From the IMG/VR virus record IMGVR_UViG_3300029206_000002: a stretch of 64,000 nucleotides of DNA; one strand, given 5' to 3'. Shown one piece after another: positions 19,711 through 61,836 of the stretch (position 1 is its first letter; the number at the start of each line of letters is the position of its first letter). The position numbers were made by a program, and so were the translations under genes. The stretch comes from a virus. The notes beneath the pieces were generated by a model. That model made no database searches, had not been told where the DNA came from, and was given only the letters and a program-made list of their open reading frames with translations.

Positions 19711-19756
19711 AATCGCATAAAAAATGGCTAAGAAAAATAAATTTAATTTGAATTCC

Positions 19757-19784: not shown

Positions 19785-19789
19785 AAGCT

Positions 19790-31700: not shown

Positions 31701-33049
31701 ATGATTTACCAGCAATTGCGTTCAATGGTCATATTAAGAATGAGTTACTTAACTATCTACAAGAATATGCATCTGATGGTACTAACTAGAAATATGATAG
31801 AATAGTAACAGCAGATAACGCTTTAACTAATACTGCTACTTATGAAAACAGATTATTGTCAGCATATCAAGATCTACTAGACTGTGAAGATGAAGGTATA
31901 AGAAAGTTTGCTAATAGATTGGGTGTATATGCTTACTTAACTAGTTTCGATAATAGAAGTACTGATTCATTCTTCGATGTAATAACTACTGCTTGGAAGA
32001 AACAAAAAGGTTATTCAGATGCAATTAAAGCTGCTATAGAAATACTTAATAATGATAAATTAGTAGGTATGGATTATTTTGGTTTTAATTCTGAAAACAT
32101 GCAGAATAATAACTTTACAGAGTTATTTACAGAAATAGCTAGAAATGCTTATAGAAATGATAAAATAGTTAAACCATATCAGTTAAGTAATTATGATAAT
32201 AAGTATGGTACTCTAGTTCAAATAAAACCCGAATCTAAGCCAATACCAGCAGTATTTAGTAGTTGGAGAGCTAATCAACCGTTTATTAAGATTCAACTTA
32301 ATCCTAATGACATCAATAGTTATATATTGTATCAGAAAGTAGCAACAGTATATCAAACTGATGAAAATGGTGATCCAGTAAAAAATACAAAACAATCTGT
32401 ATATAAAATTATACCAGCTTTAGGTACTAAAGATGATAGAAAAGTTTACTATGAATATCAAAAACAATCTGGGGAACAATCTGCATTTGAAGAAAATGCT
32501 TTACCTAAAGAAGCTATTTGGAACAATGGACAAATAGAACAATTAGTCTAGAAATTTTTTGAACCTATGACAAATAAAAATCATACCACTTTAGTGTATG
32601 AATCTTCAGATGCTATAGTAATTAATACTGTAGAAAAACAAGAAATAGTTAGCTTTGAAGAGCCAGAAGTTACAACAGTAGGTTCAGATTTAGAAGCATC
32701 TAATGAAATACATAATACAGAAGATACTTAGTCTTCTACTATTTATGGAGAAGTAGACGAACAAATTTCTACAATAACGGTAGGACAAGATGATTCTGTT
32801 ACGTTATCAGATATGCAAGTAGATATGGAAGATGGAACTTAGACTATAATAAGTGACGATGTATTGAATTTTACAGAAATAACTGATGATGTGTTTGGAG
32901 AAAGTCCGTACTTTGATTCTATATTAAATGCTGGTATTACTCAGTATGAATAGGTACAAGATATAATTACAGATATGAATACTGGGACTGATACTGTTCA
33001 AGATATGAAATTTAATGATGAAGCTTATAAAAACTGTAAAGGTAAATAA
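19790..33049 (+). CDS. Giant ORF of 4,420 codons with more than 70 in-frame TAG and no TAA or TGA. It is a candidate multi-domain ejected cargo protein containing a virion RNA-polymerase-like DxDxD motif (DFDVD at 30247-30261) and an HExxH motif (HEGFH at 25627-25641).
   Basis: All 15 track ORFs from 19871 to 31856 are in frame 2. An eye translation across the whole span found only TAG interruptions. It has an acidic disordered linker around 22.8-23.5 kb. The RNAP assignment is an inference from the motif and from how crAss-like phages are organised. Confidence 0.65.
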
Positions 33050-39897: not shown

Positions 39898-40776
39898 TCA
39901 CGCTGCATTACAACATTCACAATCGTCATATACATCATTACATTCGTCACAGTCATCACATTCATCATCGTATTCTACAGTATCACTAACTTTAGTTGGT
40001 ATGTTTTCAGTAGAGATATTCATAATGTTTATAATTTCCTGAAGGCTAATGTCTTCATCTTCTAGCATTTTGACTTCACTCATGAAAGAAACAATGTTAT
40101 CCATAGAAAGCAGTTTAATATTTTCTTTACAGAATTTTACCACTTCTTCTTTGTTCTTAATACCAAAATCATCAGCTATCATAGGTAAGAATGCAGCATT
40201 TTCATCAGGAGAATATCGACGTAAATAACGAACACGTGAACAACGATCTTGCATATACTGACTAACTTGGCTTAAGTCATTGCAAGTCATAATTACTAGT
40301 TTCTGTGCAGTCTTTTCAACTCCATCTAAGAAATCTAGCATATACTCAGTTTTGAAGTTCTTTTCAACTTCGTCAAACAAAACACATACTGGAGTAGTAA
40401 AGGACTTAAAAAACTTAATAAGTTTACCTTCTGGATAATCAGGATTAACTACAATAATAGGTAAACCTGATTCTTTAGCTAATATTTTTGCCATTACAGT
40501 CTTACCTGTACCTTTAGTACCAGCTAGCATTACACCAGTAGTATTTGTATTTGCTTTATTAAAATAGGTTATAATACGCTTCTTAAATACGTCATCAGTT
40601 TTAGTAGAATAGATTTTCTTTGGTAGATTTAATTCACCATTCTCCTTAAATATAGGTGAATCTTCCCATCTATTCCAACTCAGATCATATACTTTACCAG
40701 GTATCAAATCATAATCAGCACCTTTAGGTTTTGCAATTATCTGTTCTCCTATTTTAATAAATTCATTCTTTGCCAT
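39898..40776 (-). CDS. AAA+ ATPase with a Cys/Asp-rich C-terminal tail.
   Basis: Walker A GTKGTGKT and Walker B VLFDEVE. It ends in DDECDDCDECNDVYDDCECCNAA. Confidence 0.65.
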   Translation of the reverse strand: MAKNEFIKIGEQIIAKPKGADYDLIPGKVYDLSWNRWEDSPIFKENGELNLPKKIYSTKTDDVFKKRIITYFNKANTNTTGVMLAGTKGTGKTVMAKILAKESGLPIIVVNPDYPEGKLIKFFKSFTTPVCVLFDEVEKNFKTEYMLDFLDGVEKTAQKLVIMTCNDLSQVSQYMQDRCSRVRYLRRYSPDENAAFLPMIADDFGIKNKEEVVKFCKENIKLLSMDNIVSFMSEVKMLEDEDISLQEIINIMNISTENIPTKVSDTVEYDDECDDCDECNDVYDDCECCNAA

Positions 40777-40787
40777 AATCTGAAAAT

Positions 40788-41168
40788 TTAAGATTTTAAT
40801 TTGTTGATTAATTCATCAACTTGTTTTTTATTCTTTACTAAGTAAAACTTAGTATCTGGTTCATTCAAGCTTAAATAATACTTGAATAGTTTTTCTCTGT
40901 TTGCCCAAGAATCTGTAGCAAATCCTTTGCATTCTATAACAAAACCATCTCCTACAAAATCTGGTAAATAAGTAATAGCTCTAACTGTAGAGTTATTATA
41001 TATAAACTTAGGAAGTAAAGTATATCTATGCTGTTCATATTCAGCTGATATACCTGCTTCCTTTAGTTTCTAATATGTATAAGCTTCTAATTTAGATCGA
41101 AATACTATTCCATCTATTTCTTGTTTAGTAGCATTACGCACTTTCTTGTTTAAGACTTGTTTTAGCAT
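40788..41168 (-). CDS. Small PD-(D/E)xK nuclease (VRR-NUC/resolvase-like) with one in-frame TAG. Minus-strand coordinates of the TAG are 41072..41070.
   Basis: Eye translation gives MLKQVLNKKVRNATKQEIDGIVFRSKLEAYTY-TAG-KLKEAGISAEYEQHRYTLLPKFIYNNSTVRAITYLPDFVGDGFVIECKGFATDSWANREKLFKYYLSLNEPDTKFYLVKNKKQVDELINKLKS. The PD...ExK core is intact. The ORF track missed it because of the TAG. Confidence 0.5.
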
Positions 41169-41472
41169 AATTAATATAATGTTGCATACTATCACTAGTT
41201 ATTTTAAACGTTTCAATTCTTTCAGAAAAATTACCATTTTCATCTGTAAATCCTACTGAATGTAAGAAAGAATAATCTTTATTATGTTTAAAAGCTTTAA
41301 ACATTTCTTTAATTGAATTTACTATAAACTTACGTTTTTTATTCCATTCAGTAAATTCTCCATGCAACAATACACTCACTAATTTGATTGGAATTAATAA
41401 TAACTTTCCAAGTATTAGAGCTAAATCAAAAGGTAATGCTATTACTTTACCTATAGTTTTTAATAGTTTCAT
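41134..41472 (-). CDS. Small membrane protein of 112 aa.
   Basis: Intact ORF with an N-terminal hydrophobic helix. Confidence 0.45.
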   Translation of the reverse strand: MKLLKTIGKVIALPFDLALILGKLLLIPIKLVSVLLHGEFTEWNKKRKFIVNSIKEMFKAFKHNKDYSFLHSVGFTDENGNFSERIETFKITSDSMQHYINYAKTSLKQESA

Positions 41473-42427
41473 TTAACCAATTTTTTATTTCTTCAAAGCT
41501 ATTTGCTTTAACAGCATCAGATACATCTTTAGCTTTGAATTTTTTGTTAATAAACATTGCTTCTAAGCCTGTTTCTCGGCTTAATTTGCGACTTCTTTTT
41601 ACTCCAGCTACATCTCTATCAAAAAGTATTATAATACGCTTAAAACGCGTCTTAAGTTGCTCTAATACGTCTTTAGGTAGAAATGTACTCTCTGAAGATG
41701 GAGAAACTGCTGGTATACCCATCTCATGCAAACACATAACATCTTTCATGGACTTTGTGATAAATAATATATCACCTTTCTGAGGCAACTGCTCATAGCC
41801 TTGGATATCATAGTCTGTAAGATTGTTTCTCCATTTAGTATATTTATCTGCTAATGGTCTATATATCTTAAAGTTATTATAGACCTTATATGCATACATT
41901 GGATTTTCTCGTTTATAAGTACCCTTTACTATGCCATTACATAAATAATATTTAATACTATTTACATTGAATTTCTTTAGAGTATTTATAGAAATATTGA
42001 ACTGTTTCCAGTAATTGATATCTACATCAGTAAATTCTTGACGTACTACACCAATTACTGTTTCAGTTGGCGGTATATATTGCTTAGAGCTAACGAGTTT
42101 AGTGTTATTAGTAATGTTTAACTTATCTACTATATCAGATAGTATATCATTATATTCTGTCTTACCAGTAAATAATGATACAAATTTAATTACATTACCA
42201 CATTCACCTGTTCCATGATCTTTAAAAAGTAGTTGTTTAGTACGTTTACTATAGTAAATACCAAAGGATGGATTTTTATCCTTCCTAAATGGACTATTGT
42301 ATATCATACCTACTTTAAATTGACCTATATATTTTGCATATATATCATATTCTGTTACTTTAGAAAGTATCCAATCTAGAGTAATGTTATCTGGGAGTTT
42401 TGCTCGCTTTCTACTATACATATGCAA
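41447..42427 (-). CDS. DnaG-like DNA primase with a zinc-ribbon and a TOPRIM domain.
   Basis: NSPFRKDKNPSFGIY...GECGNVIKF resembles the primase zinc-binding region. IIILFDRDVAGVKRSRK resembles a TOPRIM DxD motif. Confidence 0.6.
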   Translation of the reverse strand: MHMYSRKRAKLPDNITLDWILSKVTEYDIYAKYIGQFKVGMIYNSPFRKDKNPSFGIYYSKRTKQLLFKDHGTGECGNVIKFVSLFTGKTEYNDILSDIVDKLNITNNTKLVSSKQYIPPTETVIGVVRQEFTDVDINYWKQFNISINTLKKFNVNSIKYYLCNGIVKGTYKRENPMYAYKVYNNFKIYRPLADKYTKWRNNLTDYDIQGYEQLPQKGDILFITKSMKDVMCLHEMGIPAVSPSSESTFLPKDVLEQLKTRFKRIIILFDRDVAGVKRSRKLSRETGLEAMFINKKFKAKDVSDAVKANSFEEIKNWLNETIKNYR

Positions 42428-42440
42428 TCTGTTTTAGTTT

Positions 42441-42530
42441 GCTACTAGTCGTGGAATCGAACCACGCCTATCCAGAGATAGATTTTTATTTCTGCTGTGC
42501 AGGCTCACGCTTCCATAAATTATCTAATAT
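42441..42530 (-). ncRNA. tRNA-like element with a canonical T-arm (GGCGTGG TTCGATT CCACG) and a 3' acceptor strand. The 5' half cannot be folded by eye.
   Basis: Minus-strand T-loop TTCGATT with a 5-bp stem. A potential aTCTAtc loop (CTA) lies upstream but has no pairing stem. Intergenic between minus-strand genes. Confidence 0.35.
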
Positions 42531-42584
42531 CCTTAAATTGATAGTGCCATATAGGATTGTAACAGATCCTCCTAGTAGTTGAAA

Positions 42585-43382
42585 CTATTCTTCTTTATTA
42601 AATAGTTTCGATATTCTCTTTATAGTTCGTTCTGCATCTTCATCAGTTAAAGCTTCACCTGTCTGAATGTAGATATCAGAAGTTGTTTCTTTCTTCATTG
42701 GTCTAACTGAATGTCCGTATCCCCAATTCATTTTAAATTTAGCATTCCAGAATTTAAACATCCAGTATCTAAAGAACCAAGGAGATATTGCTGTAAGTAT
42801 TTGTCCTTTGATTAAAGGATCTTCAAACTTTTTAATTATAACTTCAACTCCAAGAAATCCTATAGGTTCTCCGTTAAAATAACCAGGATCTTCATTATCT
42901 GCATATGCAGATATTTGAACACGATATCCTTGGGATTCTAGCATATCTATTATTCTCATAGCAGTATATGCACGAATCATAAGATTTTTAGCTGAACACC
43001 AGCAATTCTCACATATAGAAATATGAAGTTTAACGAACTTACCAGTACCTATACCATGTGTAGGTATTCTTTTCTTTAGGCAAGGTAGACCTTCTATGTA
43101 CCGATCAAAGTTCATATCATCTCCATCAGAATCATCGTACTTATATTTATGTTTACGACCTCCTAGATTTATATCCTTTTCTATTTTCTTTAGATTATCT
43201 AAACCTTTGGTATAACTATATTTAGAATCATGTATTTCTGCTGTAGATAATCCTCTAAAACCAGGGTCATCGTGATTTTCAATATTATCTATTTCAGCAG
43301 GATTACCTCCTTCAATATTGTCACATTCTCTGTAAAATTCATCTAATGAATTTATATTAATGTTTAAATTCAGTTTTTTCAT
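42585..43382 (-). CDS. Hypothetical protein of 265 aa.
   Basis: Intact ORF. Confidence 0.5.
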   Translation of the reverse strand: MKKLNLNININSLDEFYRECDNIEGGNPAEIDNIENHDDPGFRGLSTAEIHDSKYSYTKGLDNLKKIEKDINLGGRKHKYKYDDSDGDDMNFDRYIEGLPCLKKRIPTHGIGTGKFVKLHISICENCWCSAKNLMIRAYTAMRIIDMLESQGYRVQISAYADNEDPGYFNGEPIGFLGVEVIIKKFEDPLIKGQILTAISPWFFRYWMFKFWNAKFKMNWGYGHSVRPMKKETTSDIYIQTGEALTDEDAERTIKRISKLFNKEE

Positions 43383-44761
43383 TACGCTGCCGTTTTAAAT
43401 TTTGTTGTTGCAGTAGAATTTAAAAAATCTTTACGTATAGATTCAATTATTGAAGCAGTACTTTGTTTAGTTTTATTTTCTTCTACTTTTTGAATATATT
43501 GTTTTACTATATTCTTTTCAGTATCAGACCAGTTAATAATAAGCATATCTTTCCAGTCTAACATACCTACTTTCTTCATCTTTTCTGCTGCTTGAATCAT
43601 ACGAGTAGATGCAATACGACGTAATGAATTTGTTTTAATGCAATTACGTAGTAAATAAATATAATCTACTACTTCTTGATCAAATTGTGACTCATATTTA
43701 ACAGAGTAATTTACTTCAATTATTGCTCCAGTAAAACGGTCAATTGTTGAAGCATCTAGTTGGTTATTAGCAACATACTGACGGTCTGCTCCATTACCAA
43801 AAGTATTTGATGTAGCAATAATAATACATTCAGGATGTCGTAAGACAGTACCTGTAGTAGTCTCTATTTCACCGTTTGCTAATGCTGCATTAATAACCTG
43901 TGCTACAGATGGATCGAGCGCAGTCATCTCATCTATAAGGATTATTGACTTCTTAGCATAGAATTCAGCAAACTTAGTTGCTTCACGAGTAGGATATTTA
44001 TATCCTGTAAATTCTGTTGCAGAAGTACCAATACCACAAGAAATACATAAGTAAGGAATATCTAGTTCTTTAGCTGTATTACGAGCTATAGTTGATTTGC
44101 CACAACCAGCTGGACCAACCATCCAGATGTTATTCATACCTGCTTTAATTAAACTTTTAAGCTTGTCTTCTGGTTCTAGTGAACTAAATGAGAATTGAAT
44201 TTTCTTTAATTCTTCTTTTTCCTTTTCTTTTTCCTCTTTCTTTTTAAATTCTTCTTTTAATTTGTTAAGCAATTCTTTGATTTCTGTTTTGCTTCCAAAT
44301 TGTTCTAGTGATTTTTTCTCTATTTGTTTCTTTTTTTTGAGATCTGTTATATTAGCTATTTTAATAGCTCCACTACACACTTTGTACTCTTGTCCAGTAC
44401 AATTTGTAATAGTATATTCTCGAGATTGTCCTCTCTTTCCTTTTACTTCTGAAGTTAATACTAAGAAAATACCTTGTTGTGCTTGTTGTTTTCCTTTAGA
44501 ATTATTATATTTTATACTACCATAAAATCTATTTCCAGGCTTTAAATCATGAACATCTGTATTATGATTAACTAAGGTGCTATCTTCATATATATTGTCT
44601 TCTTGATTTTCAATTTGTTCATCATGCTCTGTAGCTTCAGATGCATCAGTATCTTGAGTTTCTGTAGTTAAATCTTTAGGATCTTTTAGCTTCTGTTCTT
44701 TTGCACTAGACTTTGCAGGTTGATCTTTTTCTATATCTTGAATATGTTCTATTTCTACCAT
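43382..44761 (-). CDS. AAA-type ATPase with a long acidic N-terminal region.
   Basis: Walker A GPAGCGKST and Walker B IILIDEM. Confidence 0.6.
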   Translation of the reverse strand: MVEIEHIQDIEKDQPAKSSAKEQKLKDPKDLTTETQDTDASEATEHDEQIENQEDNIYEDSTLVNHNTDVHDLKPGNRFYGSIKYNNSKGKQQAQQGIFLVLTSEVKGKRGQSREYTITNCTGQEYKVCSGAIKIANITDLKKKKQIEKKSLEQFGSKTEIKELLNKLKEEFKKKEEKEKEKEELKKIQFSFSSLEPEDKLKSLIKAGMNNIWMVGPAGCGKSTIARNTAKELDIPYLCISCGIGTSATEFTGYKYPTREATKFAEFYAKKSIILIDEMTALDPSVAQVINAALANGEIETTTGTVLRHPECIIIATSNTFGNGADRQYVANNQLDASTIDRFTGAIIEVNYSVKYESQFDQEVVDYIYLLRNCIKTNSLRRIASTRMIQAAEKMKKVGMLDWKDMLIINWSDTEKNIVKQYIQKVEENKTKQSTASIIESIRKDFLNSTATTKFKTAA

Positions 44762-44841
44762 GATGATTTGTTTTAATGATTAAAAAAGAATAAGGGTAGC
44801 TTTTACACTACCCTTATTTATTAATAATGATCTACTTTATA

Positions 44842-45462
44842 TTAAAATGGTAGATCGTCTGTTTTATCTGTAAAAGCTTGTGTATTAGTAGTAGATGAAG
44901 TTGCACTAAACGGGTTATCGTTTTTTACTTCTTTATCTGCTACAACAGGCTTTGTAAATTGGTCAATATTTAGCATAGTAATAGAAGATGATTGACCTTC
45001 TGGCAATTCCATAGGCTCAATAAAAGTATACTTAGCATAATTAGGCAAAGTAGTATATCCTTTATCATTATATACTATTTTCGCTCTAAGTTTTTTACTC
45101 TTATCTACTTTGTTTAGCATATCAGTAATCCACTGAGCAAACTGTTCAAAGCTTTCTCCATTAAAGTCAAGCTCTTCATCTTTATAGTAACAATTAAGTA
45201 TCTGCAACATACGAGAATACTGCTTATCTATTTTTGTTTGAAGCTGTTCTTCCGTAGTTACAAATCCACCAAGTGTAGGTTTCCATTCTGTATGAGTTAA
45301 TGTTGCTCCATCTTTCTCAAAAACAATTTCTAAGAATTGATTACCATTAGGAGAAACCTCTGTTTTTACACTCTTCAATACTACATTTTCAATAATACCA
45401 GCGGGAATATACTTAATATCACTTTTGCTAATACTTGCTGCACGTTCTTTACTATATGTCAT
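44842..45462 (-). CDS. ssb: Single-stranded DNA-binding protein.
   Basis: 206 aa with the C-terminal acidic tip TDDLPF, matching the SSB DDDIPF tail. Confidence 0.55.
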   Translation of the reverse strand: MTYSKERAASISKSDIKYIPAGIIENVVLKSVKTEVSPNGNQFLEIVFEKDGATLTHTEWKPTLGGFVTTEEQLQTKIDKQYSRMLQILNCYYKDEELDFNGESFEQFAQWITDMLNKVDKSKKLRAKIVYNDKGYTTLPNYAKYTFIEPMELPEGQSSSITMLNIDQFTKPVVADKEVKNDNPFSATSSTTNTQAFTDKTDDLPF

Positions 45463-45488
45463 AATTTCAATATTTTTAAGTTTTTAAA

Positions 45489-46256
45489 TCAGGCTGCACA
45501 CTCGTCTAAATAAATTTTATCCCAGTGAACTTTAATATCATTATTTTCATCGCTTTCTGCGATAACTATCTTCTTACCTCGTAAGTGAGGAGCTCTAGCT
45601 TCTCTTACTGAATTATCTCCACCTTCAAAAGATATAATAGTTTCATTCTTTTTACGATAGACATAACCAACAGCATCTGCTTCACCACATACTATATCAC
45701 CTAGTTTTCCTACTAAATCTAGTGCCATTTCTGATAATTCTTCTCCTTCTTTATTAATCATTTTTTCTTTAGTATGACCAATAAGAATAAAATTATCACA
45801 TAGATTACGAAACATATCTATTACTTTTCTAACTGCCATGCGAAGATACATATATCCACTACCATTTGGTAATGTACGTATATCATCTCCATTATAGGAT
45901 TTACCCATTGGAGTTTGACGATATAATACCTTAGCATAACCTAGACACATTTCTTCTAATCTAGTAGCATTATCTATAGCAATATATTTGTAAGGTTTGT
46001 TACCAGTTTTAGCTGCTTCTTCACCAATTGCTCTAGATATATTACCTAAGTCTTCAATAGTACGAGCTTGAATAGAGAGAGCTTCTAGAAATTCTGAACC
46101 TCCCTCTAAGTCTATAATAAGACAGTTATCAAGCTTTGATAATAAAGTAGTTTTACCTGATTTAGGTCGACCAAACAAGATTAAGAATCTTGGATTGTTA
46201 ACCTTTGGTTTGTTTTTCTCTTTTGGTAGTATTAACATATTAAAATAGGTTAACAC
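45489..46256 (-). CDS. RecA-fold ATPase, Sak4/AAA_24-like recombination or replication protein.
   Basis: Walker A FGRPKSGKTT near the N-terminus, a short IIDLEGG motif, and a size of about 255 aa. Confidence 0.5.
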   Translation of the reverse strand: MLTYFNMLILPKEKNKPKVNNPRFLILFGRPKSGKTTLLSKLDNCLIIDLEGGSEFLEALSIQARTIEDLGNISRAIGEEAAKTGNKPYKYIAIDNATRLEEMCLGYAKVLYRQTPMGKSYNGDDIRTLPNGSGYMYLRMAVRKVIDMFRNLCDNFILIGHTKEKMINKEGEELSEMALDLVGKLGDIVCGEADAVGYVYRKKNETIISFEGGDNSVREARAPHLRGKKIVIAESDENNDIKVHWDKIYLDECAA

Positions 46257-46321
46257 TTTACCTGTGAGATTCTGAAATTATCTGACAAAAACTGAAATTT
46301 TACACAATGTAAAGTTATTCG

Positions 46322-46900
46322 TTATTCATTGTTGAGAATATTGTTAACAGTAGTACTGTTACTAATATTAATAATAACATTTACTATATTATTTTTATCT
46401 GCTTTACGATAGTTATTCAAAAACAGACTAGGATTATCAATAGGAATGATTGTATAACCAATCTGAATAAACTTCTGGTAAATACGTACAGGTTGACCCA
46501 TGTAAGTAAAATCGTAACCACGATCTTCTTCATAGTCTTCCATGATTTTAGCATATTCTGCTAGTCGTTTCAATGCTAAATCAAATTCTGAAATAGCATC
46601 ATATTGACGCAATTTAAATGCTCGATTTGCGAACGGACATGTAAGTGAATTATCATATGAACATGTCGGTCGATAATATTTTTTATTGAATGCAGAGAAA
46701 TGTGCATTTCGATTGCATCCAAAACATAGCAAGTCTTCAGGACCTGCATATGATACACTGTATTCCGGATCTTCCGGAGTGTGAATTCCATACCATTTAG
46801 CAAACGGTAAGCGGTTTTTAACTTCGTTTAATATACGATTTTTCAAAGAACCCTGAGGGTCAATATTTTGTTTCGGAAGTTTAATTGTAAAACCTTTCAT
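46322..46900 (-). CDS. Hypothetical Cys-containing protein of 192 aa.
   Basis: Intact ORF with CFGCN...C...C. Confidence 0.4.
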   Translation of the reverse strand: MKGFTIKLPKQNIDPQGSLKNRILNEVKNRLPFAKWYGIHTPEDPEYSVSYAGPEDLLCFGCNRNAHFSAFNKKYYRPTCSYDNSLTCPFANRAFKLRQYDAISEFDLALKRLAEYAKIMEDYEEDRGYDFTYMGQPVRIYQKFIQIGYTIIPIDNPSLFLNNYRKADKNNIVNVIINISNSTTVNNILNNE

Positions 46901-46902
46901 AA

Positions 46903-47886
46903 TCAGCCTTTTTTAATTTGTTTAAATACTACTTTTTGTTCTTCAGCACTTGCAGTATTTGTTTCAATTAGATTGCCATATTGAAGTTCGTTTTCAAATT
47001 CTAATATACAGGGTTCACCATCTCTTACTTTTAAGAAATGCATATAAACCTTATTTTTTACAGGTAGACGACGTACTCCATATATAGCTAGATTAAGTAT
47101 CTCTGGTCTGTGAACAGCAATAACAAAATCACTAGCTTGAAATATTGCATCAGATGCTGATAAATCACTTCTCATTGGAAAGTGAGTGCTTGGATTATTA
47201 ATTCTATCAGGACTTTCAATATTACGATTCATCTGTGAAAGCTGTATTATACTAGTATTAGAAAGTTTTTTCTTCTGTATAAACATTTTCTGTAAATCGA
47301 CTATTGTACTTCTTTCTCCACCTTCTCCATTTACTAAGAGAACATGGTCTAATACTACTATTAGCCAACGACCGTTAGCTACAGTATTATGAAAGTAATC
47401 TATAGTATTACCTATTTCTTCTACATTACATACTTTATCAACAAAGTATATATTGTATTTCTTAATGGTTTCAGCTGCCGATTCAGCTTTTAATAAGTCT
47501 TCATCACTAAGTGTTTCTACTGAACTATATAATTCAGATACAGTTTTCTTAGTTTTATTACTTATTACACGACCAACATTTCTGTAGTCTACCATTTCTA
47601 AACTAAAGTATAATACTACGATATCCTGATTAGGATTAAGATCAATCAAATCCATTACTAACATATTTGCAACTGAGCTCTTACCACTACCTGATATACC
47701 AGCTATAGTAAATATCATATTTGGTTCAATTCCACCAGTGGCTTTATTGAACTTATCCCATCTGGTTTTTAATGATACTATACTATGATTTTTTCTAGCT
47801 TTAATGTAGTTTATGGATTTATTTGCTACCTGAGATATTGACTCAAAAGGTAGTATTTTAACGGCATTCTGTTCCGTATTCTCCAT
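46903..47886 (-). CDS. DnaB-like replicative helicase (RecA-fold C-terminal domain).
   Basis: Walker A AGISGSGKSS and Walker B LIVVLDH. Confidence 0.6.
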   Translation of the reverse strand: MENTEQNAVKILPFESISQVANKSINYIKARKNHSIVSLKTRWDKFNKATGGIEPNMIFTIAGISGSGKSSVANMLVMDLIDLNPNQDIVVLYFSLEMVDYRNVGRVISNKTKKTVSELYSSVETLSDEDLLKAESAAETIKKYNIYFVDKVCNVEEIGNTIDYFHNTVANGRWLIVVLDHVLLVNGEGGERSTIVDLQKMFIQKKKLSNTSIIQLSQMNRNIESPDRINNPSTHFPMRSDLSASDAIFQASDFVIAVHRPEILNLAIYGVRRLPVKNKVYMHFLKVRDGEPCILEFENELQYGNLIETNTASAEEQKVVFKQIKKG

Positions 47887-48430
47887 AACTTACAGGTGTT
47901 TCAGATTCATAACTCATTTGCTCTTCAATAACCTCCCACTCATGTTGAGTGAGCCATTTCCACATCGTCTTCATATAACCTATTTTACCAGTTATCATTT
48001 TGTTTTCAATTTCATATTGAAGACATTGAAGAAGGTGTTCGTGCATTGCTCTAGATTTACCTACGATACGGTTATATTCTTTACGACATTTATTTATATT
48101 AGATCGTAAAAAACCTTTAGTACCATCTGGTCTTAAAACATACACTGGAAATACTTCATAGAACTCATCAAACCATGTCTTATCTTGTTTTGTACTTGAC
48201 AATAGCTTTTCTGTAGGACTATAAATTTTATTATCTCCTGAAGTAGTAAAGGAGATAAGGTCATTGTCGATTAACTCTTGTATGTCGTTTTCACTTATTC
48301 GGCTGAGAAACTTGTGAACGTCTTGATTATTACTTTGATTATCATTCAACACAAGAGTTAAAAATACTAACTGATTAATTGATATTTCTCCAAAAATATC
48401 TAATAATGTTGTATCTAATTCTAGTATCAT
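47858..48430 (-). CDS. Hypothetical protein of 190 aa.
   Basis: Intact ORF. Confidence 0.45.
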   Translation of the reverse strand: MILELDTTLLDIFGEISINQLVFLTLVLNDNQSNNQDVHKFLSRISENDIQELIDNDLISFTTSGDNKIYSPTEKLLSSTKQDKTWFDEFYEVFPVYVLRPDGTKGFLRSNINKCRKEYNRIVGKSRAMHEHLLQCLQYEIENKMITGKIGYMKTMWKWLTQHEWEVIEEQMSYESETPVSYGEYGTECR

Positions 48431-48478
48431 AATATAGTACTTTATGAACTAACTTTTGATACAATCTGGAAATATTTG

Positions 48479-50632
48479 TTAAAACAACGTTAGTTGTCTT
48501 GGTTTTAATTCTTCAACGATCTTTAACGCTTCCTTTAAATAGTAGCGATAATTGATCTTTCTTTCTTCTATAGGTTTATTATCAAATTTATTTAGTATAG
48601 TAACACCAGATGCAGTAAGTAGATTAGTATAGTCTACTCTAGTACCTTTAGTTATAATCTTTGAACTATAAGGTAATATCTGTTCTACATTAGAATTATA
48701 GTAAAACTGATTTGAATCTGTAGTTATTATACTTTCTCCTGTTTTGAGACATACAAGATATTGCGGTATCTCAACATCTCTATTTACTATTTTACATTTA
48801 TATAAATAAGGACCATTAGTAGATGCATAGAATCTATTGATTCTTTGTATCAGTTCTCCATTATATTCTACAGAGAATTTCTTATCTACTTTCTGGTAAG
48901 TAAGGAACTTCTTAATATCTTTACAATTGTAGATAGTATCTTTTACAGGAATACCATCAACAAAATAATCTCTAATAGCTTCTGGAATAATCTTTGCAGA
49001 CATTCCCTTACCAAGTAAAACCTTAGTAATAAACATACCTTTTTCTTTAATATAATCATCTTTAATCATATCTAAAGAAGTATAAGGCTTCTTTTTTTTA
49101 TTTAGAGCTTTTTCTGGTTCAGTTTCAAACAATTTCTTCATTGCTTGATAACCTTCTTTTACAGCTATATAATCATTAATAGCATACTGATACATAGCTT
49201 CAAAACGATCTTCCTCTAGGGTTAGTCTCGTTTGTTGTTCCCATTCCTTACATATACTTTGTAATTTTTCATACAGATTCTTCTTAAGAAGAACAAATAA
49301 ACCATCTGTATTTGCCTGTACTATTCTACAGCCAATATCAGATAATCTTTCTGCTAACATAAGTAGTAGTAATTGTCCGTTTATTCTAATCTGCATTACT
49401 GCAAATGGACTATAACAGAAATTATGTTCATTCTGTAGATTACCACTAAGACCATTTAATGCTAACTTAAGAGTTTTATCTTTAGTCTTAATACCGTTAT
49501 GTTTTGCTTCTATTCGTTCATCTTTAACTTGATTATAAACTTCTAGAAATTCAGGACCCAAATGTTTTGGGTAGAATTTATACTCTATTATCATACTAGG
49601 ATACAGAGATGCAACATCAATATCTATTAACATTTCATCTTCCCTAGGAACAATTATCTCAGGTTTATTTTCAGAGTGAATACCACCAACTCCTACAGAA
49701 TATTTTAATCCTCTAAATACGAATTTGTTTTCATATCCTTTTCTACCTGGTGATACTATCTGTTTCTTCATATCAGATAGTACATTACGAAGTATAGGAT
49801 CTTTATATTCTATATAAGGCAATATTACTTTGTTTAGGTCTATAACATCTGCTGGGCTTCTTAAATCTTTAATATCCCACCATGATAAACCAGTCTTTTC
49901 AAGATATTTCTGCGTTAGAATTTTCATTCCAATGTTTACTCCATCTTTACTTAGTACTCTTACTTTATATTCATCTTCGATAGCTATTCTTAATTCTATA
50001 TCTTCAGAACACAGATTTAATAATTTTTCAGTAGAATTAACGTCATTCACATTATACTCAATCATCTCTTCTATTCTATCTTCTTCTAGAAACTTATTAA
50101 AGTCTCCATTAAATTCTAGAACATTAGGATATTGCATAGTTACTTGCATTTCCTTCAATCCAACACGCAATTTCTGTGAATATAACATAGTAAGTATATC
50201 AAATGAATCATACCATACTTGATATTTCCATTTTTTCCACGCTTCTATGTTGTCATCTGCTTGAGATGTAGTTATAGTTCTACTTAAGTTAAAAATACTA
50301 TCACATATTCTTAGATATGGTTTATTTTTAAGTATATCATAATAATCTATTATATAGTTAATAATAGGATTATCATAATGTAAATTATTATATCCTGCAA
50401 AGATTTTATTTGAATCAATTTGAGTTTCAGTAGTATAGAGATCTCCAAATTTTAATGGTGCATTAATATTTGGTACACGAAAGAAATCAACTAATTCTGA
50501 TAATTGATCTTTTCTGCTTGATATCTCAAATTTATGAAACTTCCCTGATTCAGTATTCTTTGCTGTGCAATGAAATACATTTGGGAAAACTTCAATATCA
50601 TAGACATATACTGTTTTTCCTCTTATCTTCAT
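48479..50632 (-). CDS. Family B DNA polymerase.
   Basis: Exo I YDIEVFPN, Exo II YNNLHYDNPII, Exo III YNVNDV, motif A DVASLYPS, motif B KLALNGLSG and motif C ANTDG are all present in the canonical order. Confidence 0.8.
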   Translation of the reverse strand: MKIRGKTVYVYDIEVFPNVFHCTAKNTESGKFHKFEISSRKDQLSELVDFFRVPNINAPLKFGDLYTTETQIDSNKIFAGYNNLHYDNPIINYIIDYYDILKNKPYLRICDSIFNLSRTITTSQADDNIEAWKKWKYQVWYDSFDILTMLYSQKLRVGLKEMQVTMQYPNVLEFNGDFNKFLEEDRIEEMIEYNVNDVNSTEKLLNLCSEDIELRIAIEDEYKVRVLSKDGVNIGMKILTQKYLEKTGLSWWDIKDLRSPADVIDLNKVILPYIEYKDPILRNVLSDMKKQIVSPGRKGYENKFVFRGLKYSVGVGGIHSENKPEIIVPREDEMLIDIDVASLYPSMIIEYKFYPKHLGPEFLEVYNQVKDERIEAKHNGIKTKDKTLKLALNGLSGNLQNEHNFCYSPFAVMQIRINGQLLLLMLAERLSDIGCRIVQANTDGLFVLLKKNLYEKLQSICKEWEQQTRLTLEEDRFEAMYQYAINDYIAVKEGYQAMKKLFETEPEKALNKKKKPYTSLDMIKDDYIKEKGMFITKVLLGKGMSAKIIPEAIRDYFVDGIPVKDTIYNCKDIKKFLTYQKVDKKFSVEYNGELIQRINRFYASTNGPYLYKCKIVNRDVEIPQYLVCLKTGESIITTDSNQFYYNSNVEQILPYSSKIITKGTRVDYTNLLTASGVTILNKFDNKPIEERKINYRYYLKEALKIVEELKPRQLTLF

Positions 50633-50647
50633 AGCGTATAAATTTAG

Positions 50648-50760
50648 TGGAGTATATGGGAATCGAACCCATGATGCCGATTGGTTGCAGCACTATAAAT
50701 AGTGTATTAGAGTCTCTCTAATATTCCTCCCTGTACCCTGCGCTTGCCTACTAGCTGAAT
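50648..50760 (-). ncRNA. tRNA-like element with the T-arm ATGGG TTCGATT CCCAT and an acceptor strand ending near CCA. The 5' half is atypical.
   Basis: Canonical T-loop on the minus strand in the polB upstream spacer. The only complementary 5' strand (ggggtat) lies about 115 nt upstream, implying an insertion or an aberrant structure. Confidence 0.3.
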
Positions 50761-50811
50761 ACCCCATGAGGCAGGATTCTTTATAGACTATCCTGCTAAA
50801 AGTCTGTCGCT

Positions 50812-51531
50812 CTACGCTGCTTGCTTTATCTCTGGCAAATGTTTAGCAAAGCATTTCTTTTCTAAAGTTGCTCTATCTACTATTGTAATAGACTCATAAT
50901 TACTATACTTATCAGATAACTTTGTATTTAGTTTAGTAACTACTTCGGTAAGTTGTTCAATGGGTAGATTAGAGTAGCTTGTTTTAAACTCTTTATCGTT
51001 TGTAGTAGCTATAACTACTTTATACGGTCTTTGTTCTAAATACTGTAGCTTCTTAGACATCTTGAACTCTGCAAGTTGTTTAGCTACTTTCTTAATTTTC
51101 TCTTCATGAGCGGCTTTATAAGCTTGTTGTTTAGCAATACGTTCTGCTTTATTGCTACCATATAGATTCTGTACCAGTTCTTTATGGTAACCAGAATAAG
51201 GACGTTCTTCTAATAACTGTTTTTTATCCTTCTTATCAGACACCTGTATAGGTTTCTTAGGAATACTAGCTATACCTTTTTTAGCTTCATGATACTCCTT
51301 TCGTGCATTAGTAGCTTCAGGAGTCCACTTATAAGTATATACTTCTCTACTTACTATCTTATCATGACGACGAGTAGTTACAAATTCCTTTGTCATAGGC
51401 TTAATATTTTCTGACAAAGATATCCCTTTACTACACATAGTTTTATAATCTGAGGACTTAGTTAATCCATAACGTTTCTGTAAGTTTTGCTGGTATTTAG
51501 CATTTTTCTTATTTCTAGTTTCTTGATTCAT
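50812..51531 (-). CDS. Basic hypothetical protein of 239 aa. Its stop codon is TAG.
   Basis: Intact ORF. It terminates at TAG (plus-strand cta at 50812-50814). Confidence 0.5.
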   Translation of the reverse strand: MNQETRNKKNAKYQQNLQKRYGLTKSSDYKTMCSKGISLSENIKPMTKEFVTTRRHDKIVSREVYTYKWTPEATNARKEYHEAKKGIASIPKKPIQVSDKKDKKQLLEERPYSGYHKELVQNLYGSNKAERIAKQQAYKAAHEEKIKKVAKQLAEFKMSKKLQYLEQRPYKVVIATTNDKEFKTSYSNLPIEQLTEVVTKLNTKLSDKYSNYESITIVDRATLEKKCFAKHLPEIKQAA

Positions 51532-51629
51532 AACAATTGATTTTAATAGTTAAAAACTAAAGGAAGCTAAATAGGTTAATATTTTAAGATTTCCCGTACG
51601 TACTCTCCCTATCGCTTCCTTGTTATATT

Positions 51630-52124
51630 TTAAGCAGCTAAGCACATTGGAGCAGCAGAATCATCAAATTCTGTTTCTTCATTGAACTTAGTAAGTTTCT
51701 CTTTTAATTTCAGAATCTCTAAATCGAGTTCTTTTATTCGTGCTTTAACCCAGTTTGAAGTTAAAACTTCAGTCTTATTCAGAGCTTTTTTACCTTTCTT
51801 AGACTTAAGAACAGGGTTCAAAGTTCGTATACGACTTAGATGTACTTTCATTTCTTGCAATTCACATAGCTTAAATACATCCAATTGATTACAATCAGCT
51901 GGCAAATCACTAAATTTCTTTATACCCATATTGATACATAGTATCTTTAATTTAACAATTACTCGATCATCTGTAAGACCTTTAATTGTATTATAAAGTT
52001 CTTTCAAATCGTAAGTACGCTGATAATTACGATTTACTACATTCTCAATAGAAATAATATTCCAATACTTAGTAATATCTGCTGATAGTTTATCACGCTG
52101 TTCAATAAATTTATTTGCTTTCAT
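51630..52124 (-). CDS. Hypothetical protein of 164 aa.
   Basis: Intact ORF. Confidence 0.45.
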   Translation of the reverse strand: MKANKFIEQRDKLSADITKYWNIISIENVVNRNYQRTYDLKELYNTIKGLTDDRVIVKLKILCINMGIKKFSDLPADCNQLDVFKLCELQEMKVHLSRIRTLNPVLKSKKGKKALNKTEVLTSNWVKARIKELDLEILKLKEKLTKFNEETEFDDSAAPMCLAA

Positions 52125-52393
52125 ATATACTTGATTTTAATAATTTGACAATTAGTTAATTACATAGTATATTAGAAAGTCTACCTGTGTAGTTAATAGA
52201 CCGATCAAAGTCTAATAACTTAAAATATCAGCTATCTTCACAGACCGCTGATATGAATAACAATAAAATTAAGAAATAAGACAGACAAGATCAAAGAGTT
52301 AGCGCCTCTGTCACATCTCGATACGGCATCCGATTCTTCTTCTCTCGGCTTTCCAACACTTAGTTACCTTAGTAACATTATCAGAGGCAAGTA

Positions 52394-52437
52394 AGTAAGA
52401 GTATATACGAACCCAACCAAATGTATATACTCTTACT
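52394..52437. promoter_or_regulatory. Perfect 14-bp inverted repeat (agtaagagtatata / tatatactcttact) with a 16-nt loop, overlapping a 26-bp direct repeat (copy 1 at 52405-52430, copy 2 at 52473-52498).
   Basis: Read directly. Located in the spacer between two minus-strand genes. Confidence 0.5.
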
Positions 52438-52501
52438 GATTTTATGTTGATTTTCAATTATTTTCTACTCAATACGAACCCAACCAAATGTATATATTCG
52501 A

Positions 52502-61762: not shown

Positions 61763-61836
61763 TAATACTAATAGGACTCGAACCTATAACTCAACCTTAT
61801 CAGTGTTGTGATGTTACCCGTTACATCCATAGTATT
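61763..61836 (-). tRNA. tRNA-Ile (anticodon GAU), 74 nt.
   Basis: A cloverleaf was folded by eye. The acceptor aatacta/tagtatt is a perfect 7 bp. The D-arm is gatg-taacgggtaa-catc with GG. The anticodon loop is ctGATaa. The T-arm is atagg-ttcgagt-cctat. There is one A.G mismatch at the base of the anticodon stem. Confidence 0.7.

What the first reader, a model, noticed from the sequence alone, without database searches (positions are those of the whole stretch)
42441..42530. Two tRNA-like elements with perfect T-arms but an unfoldable 5' half. Possible hiding places for the TAG suppressor.
The elements lie at 42441-42530 and 50648-50760, both in spacers between early genes on the minus strand. 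Each has the T-loop TTCGATT with a 5-bp stem and a 3' acceptor strand, yet no standard cloverleaf closes. The first contains an aTCTAtc heptamer whose CTA anticodon would read UAG. They could be intron-containing or otherwise atypical tRNAs, which would matter for the recoding system, or they could be tRNA-derived regulatory or processing elements.
Basis: seen in the sequence. Interest (0 to 1): 0.6.

Follow-up and report, generated by a model that had tools for sequence, protein, structure and literature searches.

The report
Anticodon-less tRNA mimics before replication genes
Two tRNA-shaped RNA elements without a working anticodon arm sit just upstream of the primase and DNA polymerase genes of a gut crAss-like phage; they derive from real tRNAs, have most likely been kept for their shape as RNA-processing signals, and are not the phage's stop-codon suppressor.

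Summary
In 64 kb, a strict T-arm search finds only three sites: a normal tRNA-Ile, E1 (42441-42529) and E2 (50648-50765). E1 and E2 are not decoding tRNAs. ARAGORN (default and intron modes) and the Rfam tRNA model reject both. The CTA heptamer in E1 has no stem and is absent from a relative. A canonical tRNA(CUA) exists elsewhere in the genomes of 98-99% identical phages.

E2 is a host-type tRNA-Ala with an intact acceptor stem (G3·U70, A73), D arm and T arm. Its anticodon arm is replaced by 67 nt. E1 shares its T arm with a tRNA-Val that occupies the same position in another phage.

Across Suoliviridae, the position 13-31 nt upstream of the primase and polymerase start codons holds a tRNA-shaped element in all but one genome examined. 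It is sometimes a canonical tRNA (Arg, Val, Ser, Leu) and more often an anticodon-less mimic of 43-140 nt. T stems covary, and position 74 is C in 20/20 elements.

Best reading (inferred, untested): these are tRNA-derived processing signals for RNase P and 3' tRNA-end processing that cut the early polycistronic RNA.

The parts
42441..42529 (-). E1, a tRNA-derived mimic in its 89-nt form. The 5' acceptor strand TATTAGA is at 42529-42523, the discriminator G at 42442 and C74 at 42441.
   Evidence: ARAGORN calls it only at pseudogene threshold. The 5' end and the D-loop remnant align with the tRNA-Val(GAC) in the primase slot of cr124_1.
42450..42466 (-). E1 T arm, CGTGG TTCGATT CCACG.
   Evidence: With its 5' flank it is 20/20 identical to the T-arm region of cr124_1 tRNA-Val in the same slot.
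42443..42449 (-). E1 3' acceptor strand, ACTAGTA.
42572..42578 (-). Alternative long-range 5' acceptor strand CTACTAG. It pairs perfectly with CTAGTAG at 42448-42442 and would make E1 138 nt long.
   Evidence: It is conserved in the L102 type but shows no covariation, so the choice between the two closures is unresolved.
42553..42570 (-). Hairpin AGGAT-CTGTTACA-ATCCT upstream of E1 (89-nt form).
   Evidence: The stem covaries in the L102 type (AGAA..TTCT).
42422..42441 (-). 20-nt A-rich trailer/leader CAAACTAAAACAGATTGCAT between E1 and the primase ATG (42421-42419).
   Evidence: It stays conserved while the element 5' of it is swapped.
42585..42587 (-). TAG stop codon of the ORF upstream of E1. 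The read-through frame stays open to the TAA at 42488-42486, inside E1.
50648..50765 (-). E2, a 118-nt tRNA-Ala-derived mimic. Acceptor 5' strand 50765-50759, D arm 50756-50741, 67-nt insert 50739-50673, T arm 50672-50656, acceptor 3' strand 50655-50649, discriminator A at 50648.
50673..50739 (-). The 67-nt replacement of the anticodon and variable region. Hairpin A (TATTAGAG-AGA-CTCTAATA) is at 50723-50705. Hairpin B (GTGCTG-CAACCAAT-CGGCAT) is at 50693-50674.
   Evidence: A central 59-nt block within it has 2 variable sites in 39 genomes, and its nucleotide diversity (0.0017) is the lowest of the region.
50773..50794 (-). Hairpin (GC)AGGAT-loop-ATCCT(GC) upstream of E2.
50633..50647 (-). 15-nt trailer/leader CTAAATTTATACGCT between E2 and the DNA polymerase ATG (50632-50630).
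50812..50814 (-). TAG stop codon of the ORF upstream of E2. The read-through frame has a second TAG and ends at the TAA at 50709-50707, inside E2.
   Evidence: The cr6_1 annotation (gp56) reads through into E2.
61763..61836 (-). A third slot of the same kind. A canonical tRNA-Ile(GAT) lies 28 nt upstream of an ORF start (ATG 61734). In cr6_1 and MT835473 it is replaced by a 73-nt tRNA-like element with a 5-nt 'anticodon' loop.

Best explanation
E1 and E2 are tRNA-derived structural mimics, not decoders. They keep the acceptor-stem/T-arm stack of a tRNA (E2 also keeps the D arm and elbow) but have lost the anticodon arm.

They occupy fixed slots in the early, minus-strand gene block, 15-20 nt upstream of the primase and DNA polymerase start codons. 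In related phages the same slots hold ordinary tRNAs or other anticodon-less mimics.

Proposed mechanism:
1. The element is transcribed as part of the early polycistronic RNA (inferred).
2. Host RNase P cuts at its 5' end, and the tRNA 3'-end machinery cuts after N73/C74 (inferred).
3. This separates the upstream mRNA, which ends in a hairpin, from a downstream mRNA with a short A/U-rich leader of the kind suited to Shine-Dalgarno-independent initiation in Bacteroidota (inferred).

Because only the shape is needed, the decoding part has been free to decay, be replaced or be expanded.

Shown here: tRNA ancestry, selective retention of the acceptor/T-arm stack (the 'minihelix'), slot conservation, and a 3' flank signature shared with genuine tRNAs. 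Inferred: co-transcription, cleavage, and any effect on expression.
For: (1) Ancestry. The acceptor stem, A73 and whole T arm of E2 (25/25 nt on the 3' side, 8/8 at the 5' end) are identical to a tRNA-Ala(GGC) of a Bacteroidales metagenome-assembled genome (MAG). The D region is a diverged copy, and only the anticodon region is replaced. The T arm of E1 is 20/20 identical to the tRNA-Val(GAC) in the primase slot of cr124_1, and its 5' end and D-loop remnant align with that tRNA.

(2) Slot conservation. All 140 IMG/VR loci fetched through the polymerase or primase protein carry a T arm ending 21-33 nt before the ATG. In GenBank Suoliviridae genomes of several subfamilies, the polymerase slot is occupied in 8/8 and the primase slot in 5/6.

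(3) Interchangeability. The same slots hold canonical tRNA-Arg(TCT), Val, Ser or Leu in some genomes. In others they hold mimics of about 43 to 140 nt that ARAGORN does not call. One is a 43-nt minihelix, TAGCCTG-11 nt-TGTAG TTCGATT CTACA-CAGGCTA. Between otherwise 90-98% identical polymerase genes, E2 and tRNA-Arg replace each other exactly between conserved flanks.

(4) Selection on shape. Over 21 element types the T stem is 96% paired. There are 37 double-change cells against 11 in shuffles, and the covariation score is 0.91 against at most 0.29 for slid controls. The E2 acceptor stem has two linked haplotypes, A6-U67 (16 loci) and G6-C67 (22 loci). In L143/L144, G2-C71 alternates with A2-U71.

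(5) Shared 3' flank. Position 74 is C in 20/20 tRNAs and mimics, where the base frequency of C is 0.15. N73 is A in 17/20 and position 76 is A in 17/20. Mimics and real tRNAs thus present the same 3' flank signature. From established knowledge, C74 is one of the bases read by the L15 loop of bacterial RNase P RNA.

(6) Position relative to genes. Every element with a canonical TTCGA T loop whose downstream ORF was found, including the suppressor tRNA, is followed by an ORF start 13-31 nt after the discriminator.

(7) No Bacteroides-type promoter consensus lies near E1 or E2. Hairpins lie just 5' of the elements.
Against: - There are no RNA data. Co-transcription and cleavage are untested, and the host and its RNase P and RNase Z are unknown.
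- A processing-only role does not explain why the 67-nt insert of E2 is almost invariant. A recent sweep of the cassette could explain it equally well.
- The slot is not indispensable. The primase slot of cr118_1 holds only a hairpin. Steigviridae and Intestiviridae have tight junctions with no element.
- Some variants weaken the T stem. L102-type elements (6 loci) have a 1-nt deletion, and cr6_1 itself has an A6·C67 mismatch.
- The long-range closure of E1 is not statistically compelling on its own. With G·U pairs allowed, a 7-mer match within 300 nt is expected by chance about half the time. A control scan of reversed sequences gave 2 hits against 9 real ones.
Confidence: 0.5

Rival explanations
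1. They are decaying tRNA pseudogenes with no function. Phage tRNA genes are gained and lost quickly. E1 and E2 would then be wrecks of a tRNA-Val-like and a tRNA-Ala gene, left in the intergenic spacers where tRNA genes tend to land.
For: Both are clearly tRNA-derived. E1 looks patchy, with D-loop remnants and no stems. Some relatives carry damaged T stems or an empty slot. tRNA finders reject both elements.
Against: Decay should hit the T arm and acceptor stem as often as the anticodon arm. Instead the anticodon arm is lost in many independent types while the T arm is present in 140/140 loci and the T stem is 96% paired with strong covariation. The 5' acceptor end (8/8 nt) and the T arm, 3' acceptor strand and A73 (25/25 nt) of E2 are unchanged relative to a bacterial tRNA-Ala, while its D region carries several substitutions and indels. 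Acceptor stems show compensatory haplotypes. New 5' strands have repeatedly been recruited to re-close the helix. The spacing to the ATG and C74 are conserved.
Confidence: 0.2
2. E2, and possibly the G3·U70 element in the cr4_1 primase slot, is a charged but non-decoding tRNA mimic. After tRNA-type processing and CCA addition it would be alanylated by host AlaRS. It would then act in trans as a tmRNA-like tRNA domain, an Ala donor, or a sink or decoy for AlaRS, EF-Tu or tRNA-targeting defences.
For: E2 keeps the acceptor-stem identity set of tRNA-Ala (G1-C72, G2-C71, G3·U70, G4-C69, A73), identical to a Bacteroidales tRNA-Ala. From established knowledge, AlaRS needs only G3·U70 in an acceptor minihelix. 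G3·U70 is retained in 38 of 39 genomes. A second expanded mimic with GGGATAC/GTATTCC-A also has G3·U70. The 67-nt insert is almost invariant, which suggests a sequence-specific role. The architecture, an insert in place of the anticodon arm, resembles tmRNA. Rfam gives a weak tmRNA hit on the T arm (E=0.011).
Against: G3·U70 may simply be inherited, and one genome has A3-U70. Most other mimics lack G3·U70. There is no tag reading frame ending in a tmRNA-type tail and there are no pseudoknots. ARAGORN's tmRNA search and the Rfam gathering thresholds are negative. CCA is not encoded. The insert has no copy elsewhere in the window or in the other loci searched, including all of cr6_1.
Confidence: 0.1
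3. They are atypical but functional decoding tRNAs, with E1 as the amber suppressor (CUA), possibly containing introns.
For: The CTA heptamer in E1 lies at canonical spacing from the T arm (7-nt loop, 5 nt, 5 nt, then the T stem). The late genes are TAG-recoded. The window itself holds no tRNA(CUA).
Against: There is no anticodon stem (2 Watson-Crick pairs and 1 G·U of 5). The CTAT is absent from the L142 E1-type element. The middle of E1 is replaced wholesale in the L102 type. ARAGORN intron mode and the Rfam tRNA model are negative. Canonical tRNA(CUA) genes exist in cr6_1 and in 28 related contigs, including one 98-99% identical to the window.
Confidence: 0.03
4. They are recombination-junction or cassette modules. 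The conserved T-loop and flank sequences would serve mainly as microhomology for exchanging gene modules between co-infecting phages.
For: Slot contents are swapped exactly between conserved flanks (E2 versus tRNA-Arg). The gene upstream of primase changes together with the element, while the primase protein stays 100% identical. cr6_1 has E2 and the leader at 99% identity but a polymerase only 52% identical.
Against: Recombination does not require a closed acceptor helix, T-stem covariation or C74. The strand and the distance to the ATG are fixed. Mosaicism is compatible with the processing model and could be a by-product of it.
Confidence: 0.07

Closest known systems
Mitochondrial tRNA punctuation and plant-mitochondrial t-elements (own knowledge: Ojala et al. 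1981; Forner et al. 2007)
   Same: tRNAs or anticodon-less tRNA-like structures lie directly next to ORFs in polycistronic transcripts. The acceptor/T-arm shape serves as the RNase P/RNase Z cutting signal. Real tRNAs and degenerate mimics are used interchangeably.
   Different: Here the setting is a bacterial virus. The elements lie 13-31 nt 5' of start codons, so a short leader remains. Cleavage is not demonstrated.
Viral and cellular tRNA mimics processed by the tRNA machinery: MALAT1 mascRNA, and the tRNA-like parts of murine gammaherpesvirus 68 TMERs (own knowledge)
   Same: tRNA-shaped, non-decoding modules embedded in longer RNAs and released by RNase P and/or RNase Z. The second case is virus-encoded.
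   Different: Those are eukaryotic systems (Pol III promoters, miRNA release). The phage elements precede protein-coding genes and are derived from bacterial-type tRNAs.
tRNA-like domain of tmRNA
   Same: E2 has a G3·U70/A73 alanine-type acceptor stem and a canonical T arm, with a large insert where the anticodon arm should be.
   Different: E2 is 118 nt, keeps a D stem, and has no pseudoknots or tag ORF. It is not detected by ARAGORN's tmRNA search or by the Rfam tmRNA models above threshold.
Canonical phage tRNA genes in the same slots: tRNA-Arg(TCT), Val, Ser, Leu, Ile, and the tRNA(CUA) suppressor
   Same: Same strand, the same distance to the next ATG, the same T-loop consensus and the same N73-C74-W-A trailer.
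   Different: E1 and E2 lack a 5-bp/7-nt anticodon arm and are rejected by tRNA detectors.
RNase P substrates in bacterial and phage non-tRNA RNAs (own knowledge): intergenic regions of E. coli operon mRNAs (Li & Altman 2003), P1/P7 C4 antisense RNA, P4 CI RNA, and minihelix model substrates (McClain et al. 1987)
   Same: An acceptor/T-arm-like stack is enough for RNase P cleavage, and it is used to process phage regulatory RNAs and operon mRNAs.
   Different: Those sites are individually idiosyncratic. Here a whole phage family shows syntenic, tRNA-derived elements with a canonical T loop.

Membership tests
Canonical tRNA | 7-bp acceptor stem joining the 5' and 3' ends | tested here: met
   E2: GGGGTAT/ATACTCC, 7/7 with one G·U, plus the compensatory haplotype GGGGTGT/ACACTCC. 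E1: TATTAG/CTAGTA, 6 bp (7 bp in L142), or CTACTAG/CTAGTAG, 7 bp.
Canonical tRNA | T arm with a 5-bp stem, G53-C61 and loop UUCRANY | tested here: met
   E1: CGTGG TTCGATT CCACG. E2: ATGGG TTCGATT CCCAT. The T stem covaries across 21 types.
Canonical tRNA | D arm with U8, A14, G18G19 and A21 | tested here: inconclusive
   Met in E2 (3 bp plus an A·G, with all named bases present). Not met in E1, which has only a diverged D-loop remnant, GAAGCGTGAGCC.
Canonical tRNA | Anticodon arm with a 5-bp stem and a 7-nt loop containing U33 | tested here: not met
   E2 has 67 nt between the D and T arms. The best local hairpins have 3-nt and 8-nt loops. E1 has no stem around any heptamer.
Canonical tRNA | Passes the tRNA detectors (ARAGORN default, Rfam RF00005) | tested here: not met
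   The neighbouring tRNA-Ile scores 52.8 bits. tRNAscan-SE could not be run. The deposited cr6_1 record annotates neither element as a tRNA.
Amber suppressor tRNA(CUA) | CUA at positions 34-36 of a stem-closed 7-nt loop, conserved among relatives | tested here: not met
   The heptamer at 42483-42477 has 3 of 5 possible flanking pairs and is absent in L142. A canonical tRNA(CUA) is present elsewhere in related genomes.
Intron-containing tRNA | Removing an insert from the anticodon loop restores a standard anticodon arm | tested here: not met
   ARAGORN -i/-io finds nothing at default stringency. At -ps80 it gives only a poor model for E2 (24-nt 'intron', mismatched stem, anticodon AAT) among 24 noise calls. 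In alignment with tRNA-Ala, most of the extra sequence falls between the D arm and the anticodon-arm position, not inside the anticodon loop.
tmRNA | tRNA-like domain with G3·U70, plus a tag reading frame and pseudoknots | tested here: not met
   The TLD-like features are met in E2. There is no tag ORF or pseudoknot, and no ARAGORN or Rfam tmRNA call above threshold.
tRNA-like processing elements (t-elements, mascRNA and similar) | Non-decoding acceptor/T-arm mimic embedded in a longer transcript beside another functional RNA | tested here: met
   Met at the sequence level only. The elements share the strand of the flanking ORFs, lie 15-20 nt before the start codons, and recur in syntenic slots.
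tRNA-like processing elements (t-elements, mascRNA and similar) | Cleaved by RNase P at the 5' end and by RNase Z or equivalent at the 3' end | not testable with these tools
   Only indirect evidence: C74 in 20/20 elements and A73 in 17/20, shared with genuine tRNAs.
Phage attP copy of a host tRNA 3' end | Identity restricted to the 3' part of a host tRNA, next to an integrase | tested here: not met
   E2 also matches the 5' acceptor strand and D region of tRNA-Ala. The T arms differ between relatives but always stay paired. No integrase is annotated in cr6_1.

The most novel reading that the evidence does not exclude
E2 is a phage-encoded, anticodon-less alanine-accepting tRNA mimic. It would be cut out of the early transcript like a tRNA, given a CCA tail and charged by host AlaRS through its intact G3·U70/A73 acceptor stem. 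Its near-invariant 67-nt insert would give it a trans-acting role, for example a minimal tmRNA-like or decoy function. A related possibility: both upstream ORFs end in TAG, and their read-through frames run into the 5' half of E1 and E2. Late expression of the suppressor tRNA could therefore send ribosomes into the mimics and unfold them, coupling primase and polymerase mRNA processing to the genetic-code switch.
Probability: 0.1. Interest if true: 0.85.

Novelty: new variant of a known kind. Interest (0 to 1): 0.6.

Why it matters
- It removes a false lead. The suppressor of this recoded phage is an ordinary tRNA(CUA) elsewhere in the genome. Annotators should not read TAG-terminated early ORFs through into these elements, as the cr6_1 record does for gp56.
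- It points to an unreported layer of gene expression in one of the most abundant human-gut phage families. Early replication genes appear to be punctuated by tRNA-shaped elements, with real tRNAs and anticodon-less mimics interchangeable at the same slots. If confirmed, this would be a bacterial-virus counterpart of mitochondrial tRNA punctuation. It would also explain why many tRNA-like 'pseudogenes' persist in Crassvirales genomes.
- It offers a natural series of minimal RNase P/RNase Z substrates (43 to about 140 nt). One of them keeps the complete alanine identity set of its host tRNA.
- The exact match of E2 to a Bacteroidales tRNA-Ala is a host clue for an uncultured phage.

Tried and rejected
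- ARAGORN in default, intron (-i, -io), relaxed (-ps, -ps90, -ps80) and mitochondrial modes. Only relaxed modes touch E1 or E2, and they do so among many obvious false positives.
- Rfam at gathering and at E<=10 thresholds on both spacers and on the whole early region. There is no tRNA, tmRNA, ribozyme or other family for E1 or E2.
- tmRNA idea. I looked for tag frames in the 67-nt insert and found none that is tmRNA-like.
- Intron idea. No excision restores an anticodon arm.
- attP idea. Rejected, as set out in the membership test.
- Protein-coding extension through TAG. The read-through frames exist but are frame-shifted in the L102 type. Variation follows RNA pairing rather than codon position.
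- Repeated-element idea. The E2 insert and the E1 interior have no other copy in the window or in the other loci searched, including all of cr6_1.
- Promoter idea. There are no Bacteroides-type -33/-7 matches near the elements, and the sigma-70 scan is no better than shuffles.
- Relaxed T-arm scan for further elements in the window. It gave only noise beyond the three sites.
- Literature searches for crAss-like phages with 'tRNA-like', with RNase P, and for tRNA punctuation in phage found no description of these elements.
Full report
CONTEXT

The window is a crAss-like phage of the family Suoliviridae (Bearivirinae, Afonbuvirus). It is 97% identical to MT835473 and 95% identical to cr6_1 (NC_055894) over 40000-52000. 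The plus-strand genes at 1-37458 are full of in-frame TAG codons; for example, there are 60 in the ORF at 19721-33049. The minus-strand early block (37493-63450) has essentially none.

THE OBSERVATION

On the minus strand, E1 reads ...TATTAGA-TAATTTATGGAAGCGTGAGCCTGCACAGCAGAAATAAAAATCTATCTCTGGATAGG-CGTGG TTCGATT CCACG-ACTAGTA-G-C... (42529-42441). E2 reads GGGGTAT-TC-AGCT AGTAGGCA AGCG-C-[67 nt]-ATGGG TTCGATT CCCAT-ATACTCC-A (50765-50648).

I scanned both strands for a 5-bp stem closed by G-C around a TTCRANN loop. The whole 64 kb gives exactly three hits: E1, E2 and the genuine tRNA-Ile(GAT) at 61763-61836. Relaxing the pattern adds only noise.

- E2 closes a 7-bp acceptor stem and has a tRNA-type D arm (U8, A14, G18G19, A21). 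'Unfoldable 5' half' is therefore wrong for E2, and its 5' end is 50765 rather than 50760.
L142 has TATTAGT, which repairs the terminal A·A mismatch. The 89-nt form aligns end to end with a real tRNA. I therefore prefer it, but the choice is not settled.

NOT DECODING tRNAs, NOT THE SUPPRESSOR

- ARAGORN in default and intron modes calls neither element. E1 appears as a poor 'tRNA-Cys' at the -ps setting. At -ps80, E2 appears as a poor 'tRNA-Ile with a 24-nt intron', among 24 calls in the window that are mostly noise.
- The Rfam tRNA model gives nothing at E<=10 in either spacer, while tRNA-Ile scores 52.8 bits.
- The ATCTATC heptamer (42483-42477) lies at canonical spacing from the T arm, but only 3 of 5 flanking stem pairs can form. 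The E1-type element of L142 lacks the CTAT. The middle of E1 is replaced entirely in the L102 type.
- A canonical tRNA(CUA) lies at 25904-25977 of cr6_1, where it is annotated as tRNA-Gln. Its anticodon-arm sequence occurs in 28 IMG/VR contigs, and ARAGORN confirmed tRNA(CUA) in each of the six checked.
- One of these contigs (037816) is 98-99% identical to the window over two stretches of about 6.5 kb. Its suppressor-bearing fragment has no match in the window. The suppressor therefore lies in the roughly 36 kb of genome outside the window.

ANCESTRY

An exact search of 185,579 bacterial genomes with the 3' end of E2 hit a Bacteroidales MAG. There the sequence is the 3' end of a normal tRNA-Ala(GGC). 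In alignment, E2 and this tRNA share GGGGTATT at the 5' end and ATGGGTTCGATTCCCATATACTCCA at the 3' end without a single difference. The D region is a diverged copy. The anticodon and variable region (22 nt in the tRNA) is represented by 67 nt in E2. E2 thus retains the complete AlaRS identity set (G3·U70, A73).

For E1, the 20 nt AGGCGTGGTTCGATTCCACG are identical to the T-arm region of a tRNA-Val(GAC) that occupies the same position, upstream of primase, in cr124_1. The 5' end of E1 (TATTAGATAAT against GTATTCCTAAT) and a D-loop remnant also align with that tRNA.

THE SLOTS

I fetched 63 loci through the polymerase N-terminus and 80 through primase.

- Every one of the 140 usable loci has a T arm ending 21-33 nt before the ATG.
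- The polymerase slot holds E2 in 39 loci, split into two acceptor haplotypes: A6-U67 in 16 and G6-C67 in 22, with one carrying A3-U70. It also holds canonical tRNA-Arg(TCT) in two sequence families, a 98-nt cloverleaf with a long central arm (fold z = -3.8), a normal-sized tRNA with a 6-nt loop, and a minihelix.
- The primase slot holds E1-type elements, a 43-nt minihelix (in cr6_1 and 22 other loci), a three-arm 60-nt form, and others.
- In GenBank Suoliviridae genomes of other subfamilies, the primase slot holds tRNA-Leu (cr131_1), two tRNA-Val (cr124_1), unannotated mimics (cr114_1, cr4_1, cr50_1) or only a hairpin (cr118_1).
- In those genomes the polymerase slot is occupied in 8/8. Two occupants are canonical (Val, Ser) and six are mimics that ARAGORN does not call.
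- Steigviridae and Intestiviridae have no such slot upstream of primase.
- A third slot exists in the window itself. The tRNA-Ile, 28 nt before an ORF, is replaced in cr6_1 and MT835473 by a 73-nt tRNA-like element with a 5-nt loop.

EVIDENCE FOR SELECTION ON SHAPE

- Across 21 element types the T stem is 96% paired. There are 37 double-change cells against 11.1 in shuffles. The covariation score is 0.91, against 0.21 for shuffles and at most 0.29 for slid partners. G53-C61 and the loop bases TTCG are invariant.
- Acceptor stems covary within types.
- Between genomes with 90-98% identical polymerases, E2 and tRNA-Arg replace each other exactly between conserved flanks (...CCTGCCTC | element | CTA(C)AAATTTATACGCTATG).
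- Position 74 is C in 20/20 tRNAs and mimics (C makes up 15% of the window). N73 is A in 17/20 and position 76 is A in 17/20. The six further polymerase-slot elements with a recognisable T arm also have C74.
- Every element with a canonical T loop whose downstream ORF was found, including the suppressor tRNA, is followed by an ORF start 13-31 nt after the discriminator.
- Nucleotide diversity across 39 E2-type genomes is lowest over the upstream hairpin and the centre of E2 (0.002-0.003). It is 0.02-0.06 in the upstream gene and 0.004-0.044 in the polymerase gene.

MECHANISM (INFERRED)

The part that is always kept is the acceptor-stem/T-arm stack with a canonical T loop and an A73-C74 trailer. 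From established knowledge, this is what bacterial RNase P, RNase Z and the CCA-adding enzyme recognise. The decoding part is dispensable.

I therefore propose that the elements act as punctuation. RNase P would cut at the 5' end of the element, leaving the upstream mRNA ending in the AGGAT...ATCCT hairpin (42570-42553; 50794-50773). The 3' processing would release a downstream mRNA with a 15-20-nt A/U-rich leader.

No Bacteroides-type promoter lies near the elements. In cr6_1 a terminator-like hairpin directly abuts the minihelix. Both points are consistent with read-through transcription. None of these steps has been observed, so my confidence in the function is about 0.5. My confidence that E1 and E2 are tRNA-derived, non-decoding mimics under selection for the acceptor/T-arm stack is much higher.

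WHAT REMAINS UNEXPLAINED

- The near-invariance of the 67-nt insert of E2.
- The retention of G3·U70. It is also present in the expanded mimic of cr4_1.
- The loop hexamer AACCAA, shared by hairpin B of E2 and by the odd tRNA of L063 in the same slot.
- Two of the only three early ORFs that end in TAG are the ORFs directly upstream of E1 and E2. Their read-through frames end at TAA inside the elements.

These points keep open a charged, tmRNA-like or decoy role for E2, and a possible coupling of processing to the late code switch.

NOVELTY

tRNA-like processing signals are known: mitochondrial punctuation and t-elements, mascRNA, MHV68 TMERs and RNase P sites in operon mRNAs. I found no description of them in Crassvirales or as a syntenic, family-wide feature of a phage. 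I rate the finding a new variant of a known kind.

Noticed in passing
window 62326-62453 (-) and 63612-63757 (-): Strong Rfam matches to RAGATH-7-assoc (139.6 bits) and RAGATH-9 (122.6 bits) in the same early block as the tRNA mimics. These are structured RNAs of unknown function, named for their association with hammerhead and twister ribozyme genes.
   Followed up: no
window 53943-55795: A 1.85-kb stretch with no ORF over 78 aa on either strand, inside the early gene block. It contains a perfect 27-nt direct repeat (54012 and 54113). The homologous region of cr6_1 (about 45796-47875) is also unannotated.
   Followed up: partly
window 61763-61836; L146 39678-39750 (cr6_1); L148 5639-5711 (MT835473): The window's tRNA-Ile(GAT) slot is occupied in the two closest GenBank relatives by a 73-nt tRNA-like element (TTACGGA...GCGGG TTCGAGT CCCGC TCCGTAA). 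Its 'anticodon' loop has 5 nt, and ARAGORN does not call it.
   Followed up: partly
window 42553-42570, 50773-50794, also 42265, 43991, 54369, 9352, 13769: The hairpin motif AGGAT-N4-14-ATCCT occurs 7 times against 0.95 expected. Two copies lie immediately upstream of E1 and E2.
   Followed up: partly
window 42585-42587, 50812-50814, 55796-55798: Only 3 of 33 early minus-strand ORFs end in TAG. Two of them are the ORFs directly upstream of E1 and E2, and their TAG read-through frames terminate at TAA inside the elements.
   Followed up: partly
L001 11706-12530 (cr6_1 gp56, YP_010112691.1): The deposited cr6_1 annotation reads this early ORF through TAG codons into E2, adding about 35 codons. 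This is probably an artefact of applying the TAG=Gln code to an early gene.
   Followed up: yes
window 48479-50632 versus cr6_1 50889-52739: The cr6_1 polymerase N-terminus is only 52% identical to the window's (616 aa against 717 aa), although E2 and the leader are 99% identical. A mosaic junction therefore lies at or just inside the polymerase start. Likewise, the gene upstream of primase differs between genomes with 100% identical primases.
   Followed up: partly
L189 (NZ_SSXV01000076.1, 'Thauera sp. 2A1', 2.4 kb, coverage 1): This contig of a Thauera genome assembly is crAss-like phage DNA. It carries E2 and the start of the polymerase gene, so it is almost certainly a contaminant.
   Followed up: no
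L128/L143/L144/L178, about 40 nt upstream of the primase-slot element: A conserved hairpin, TATCCTATAG-loop-CTATAGGATA, directly abuts the tRNA mimic. Further conserved structured-looking sequence lies upstream (for example GATAGGTGTGAGTCCTATGATAC). These were not analysed.
   Followed up: no
window 50686-50679 (E2 hairpin B loop) and L063, about 2935-2945: The loop hexamer AACCAA is shared by the anticodon-arm equivalents of two very different polymerase-slot elements, in phages whose polymerases are 50% identical.
   Followed up: no
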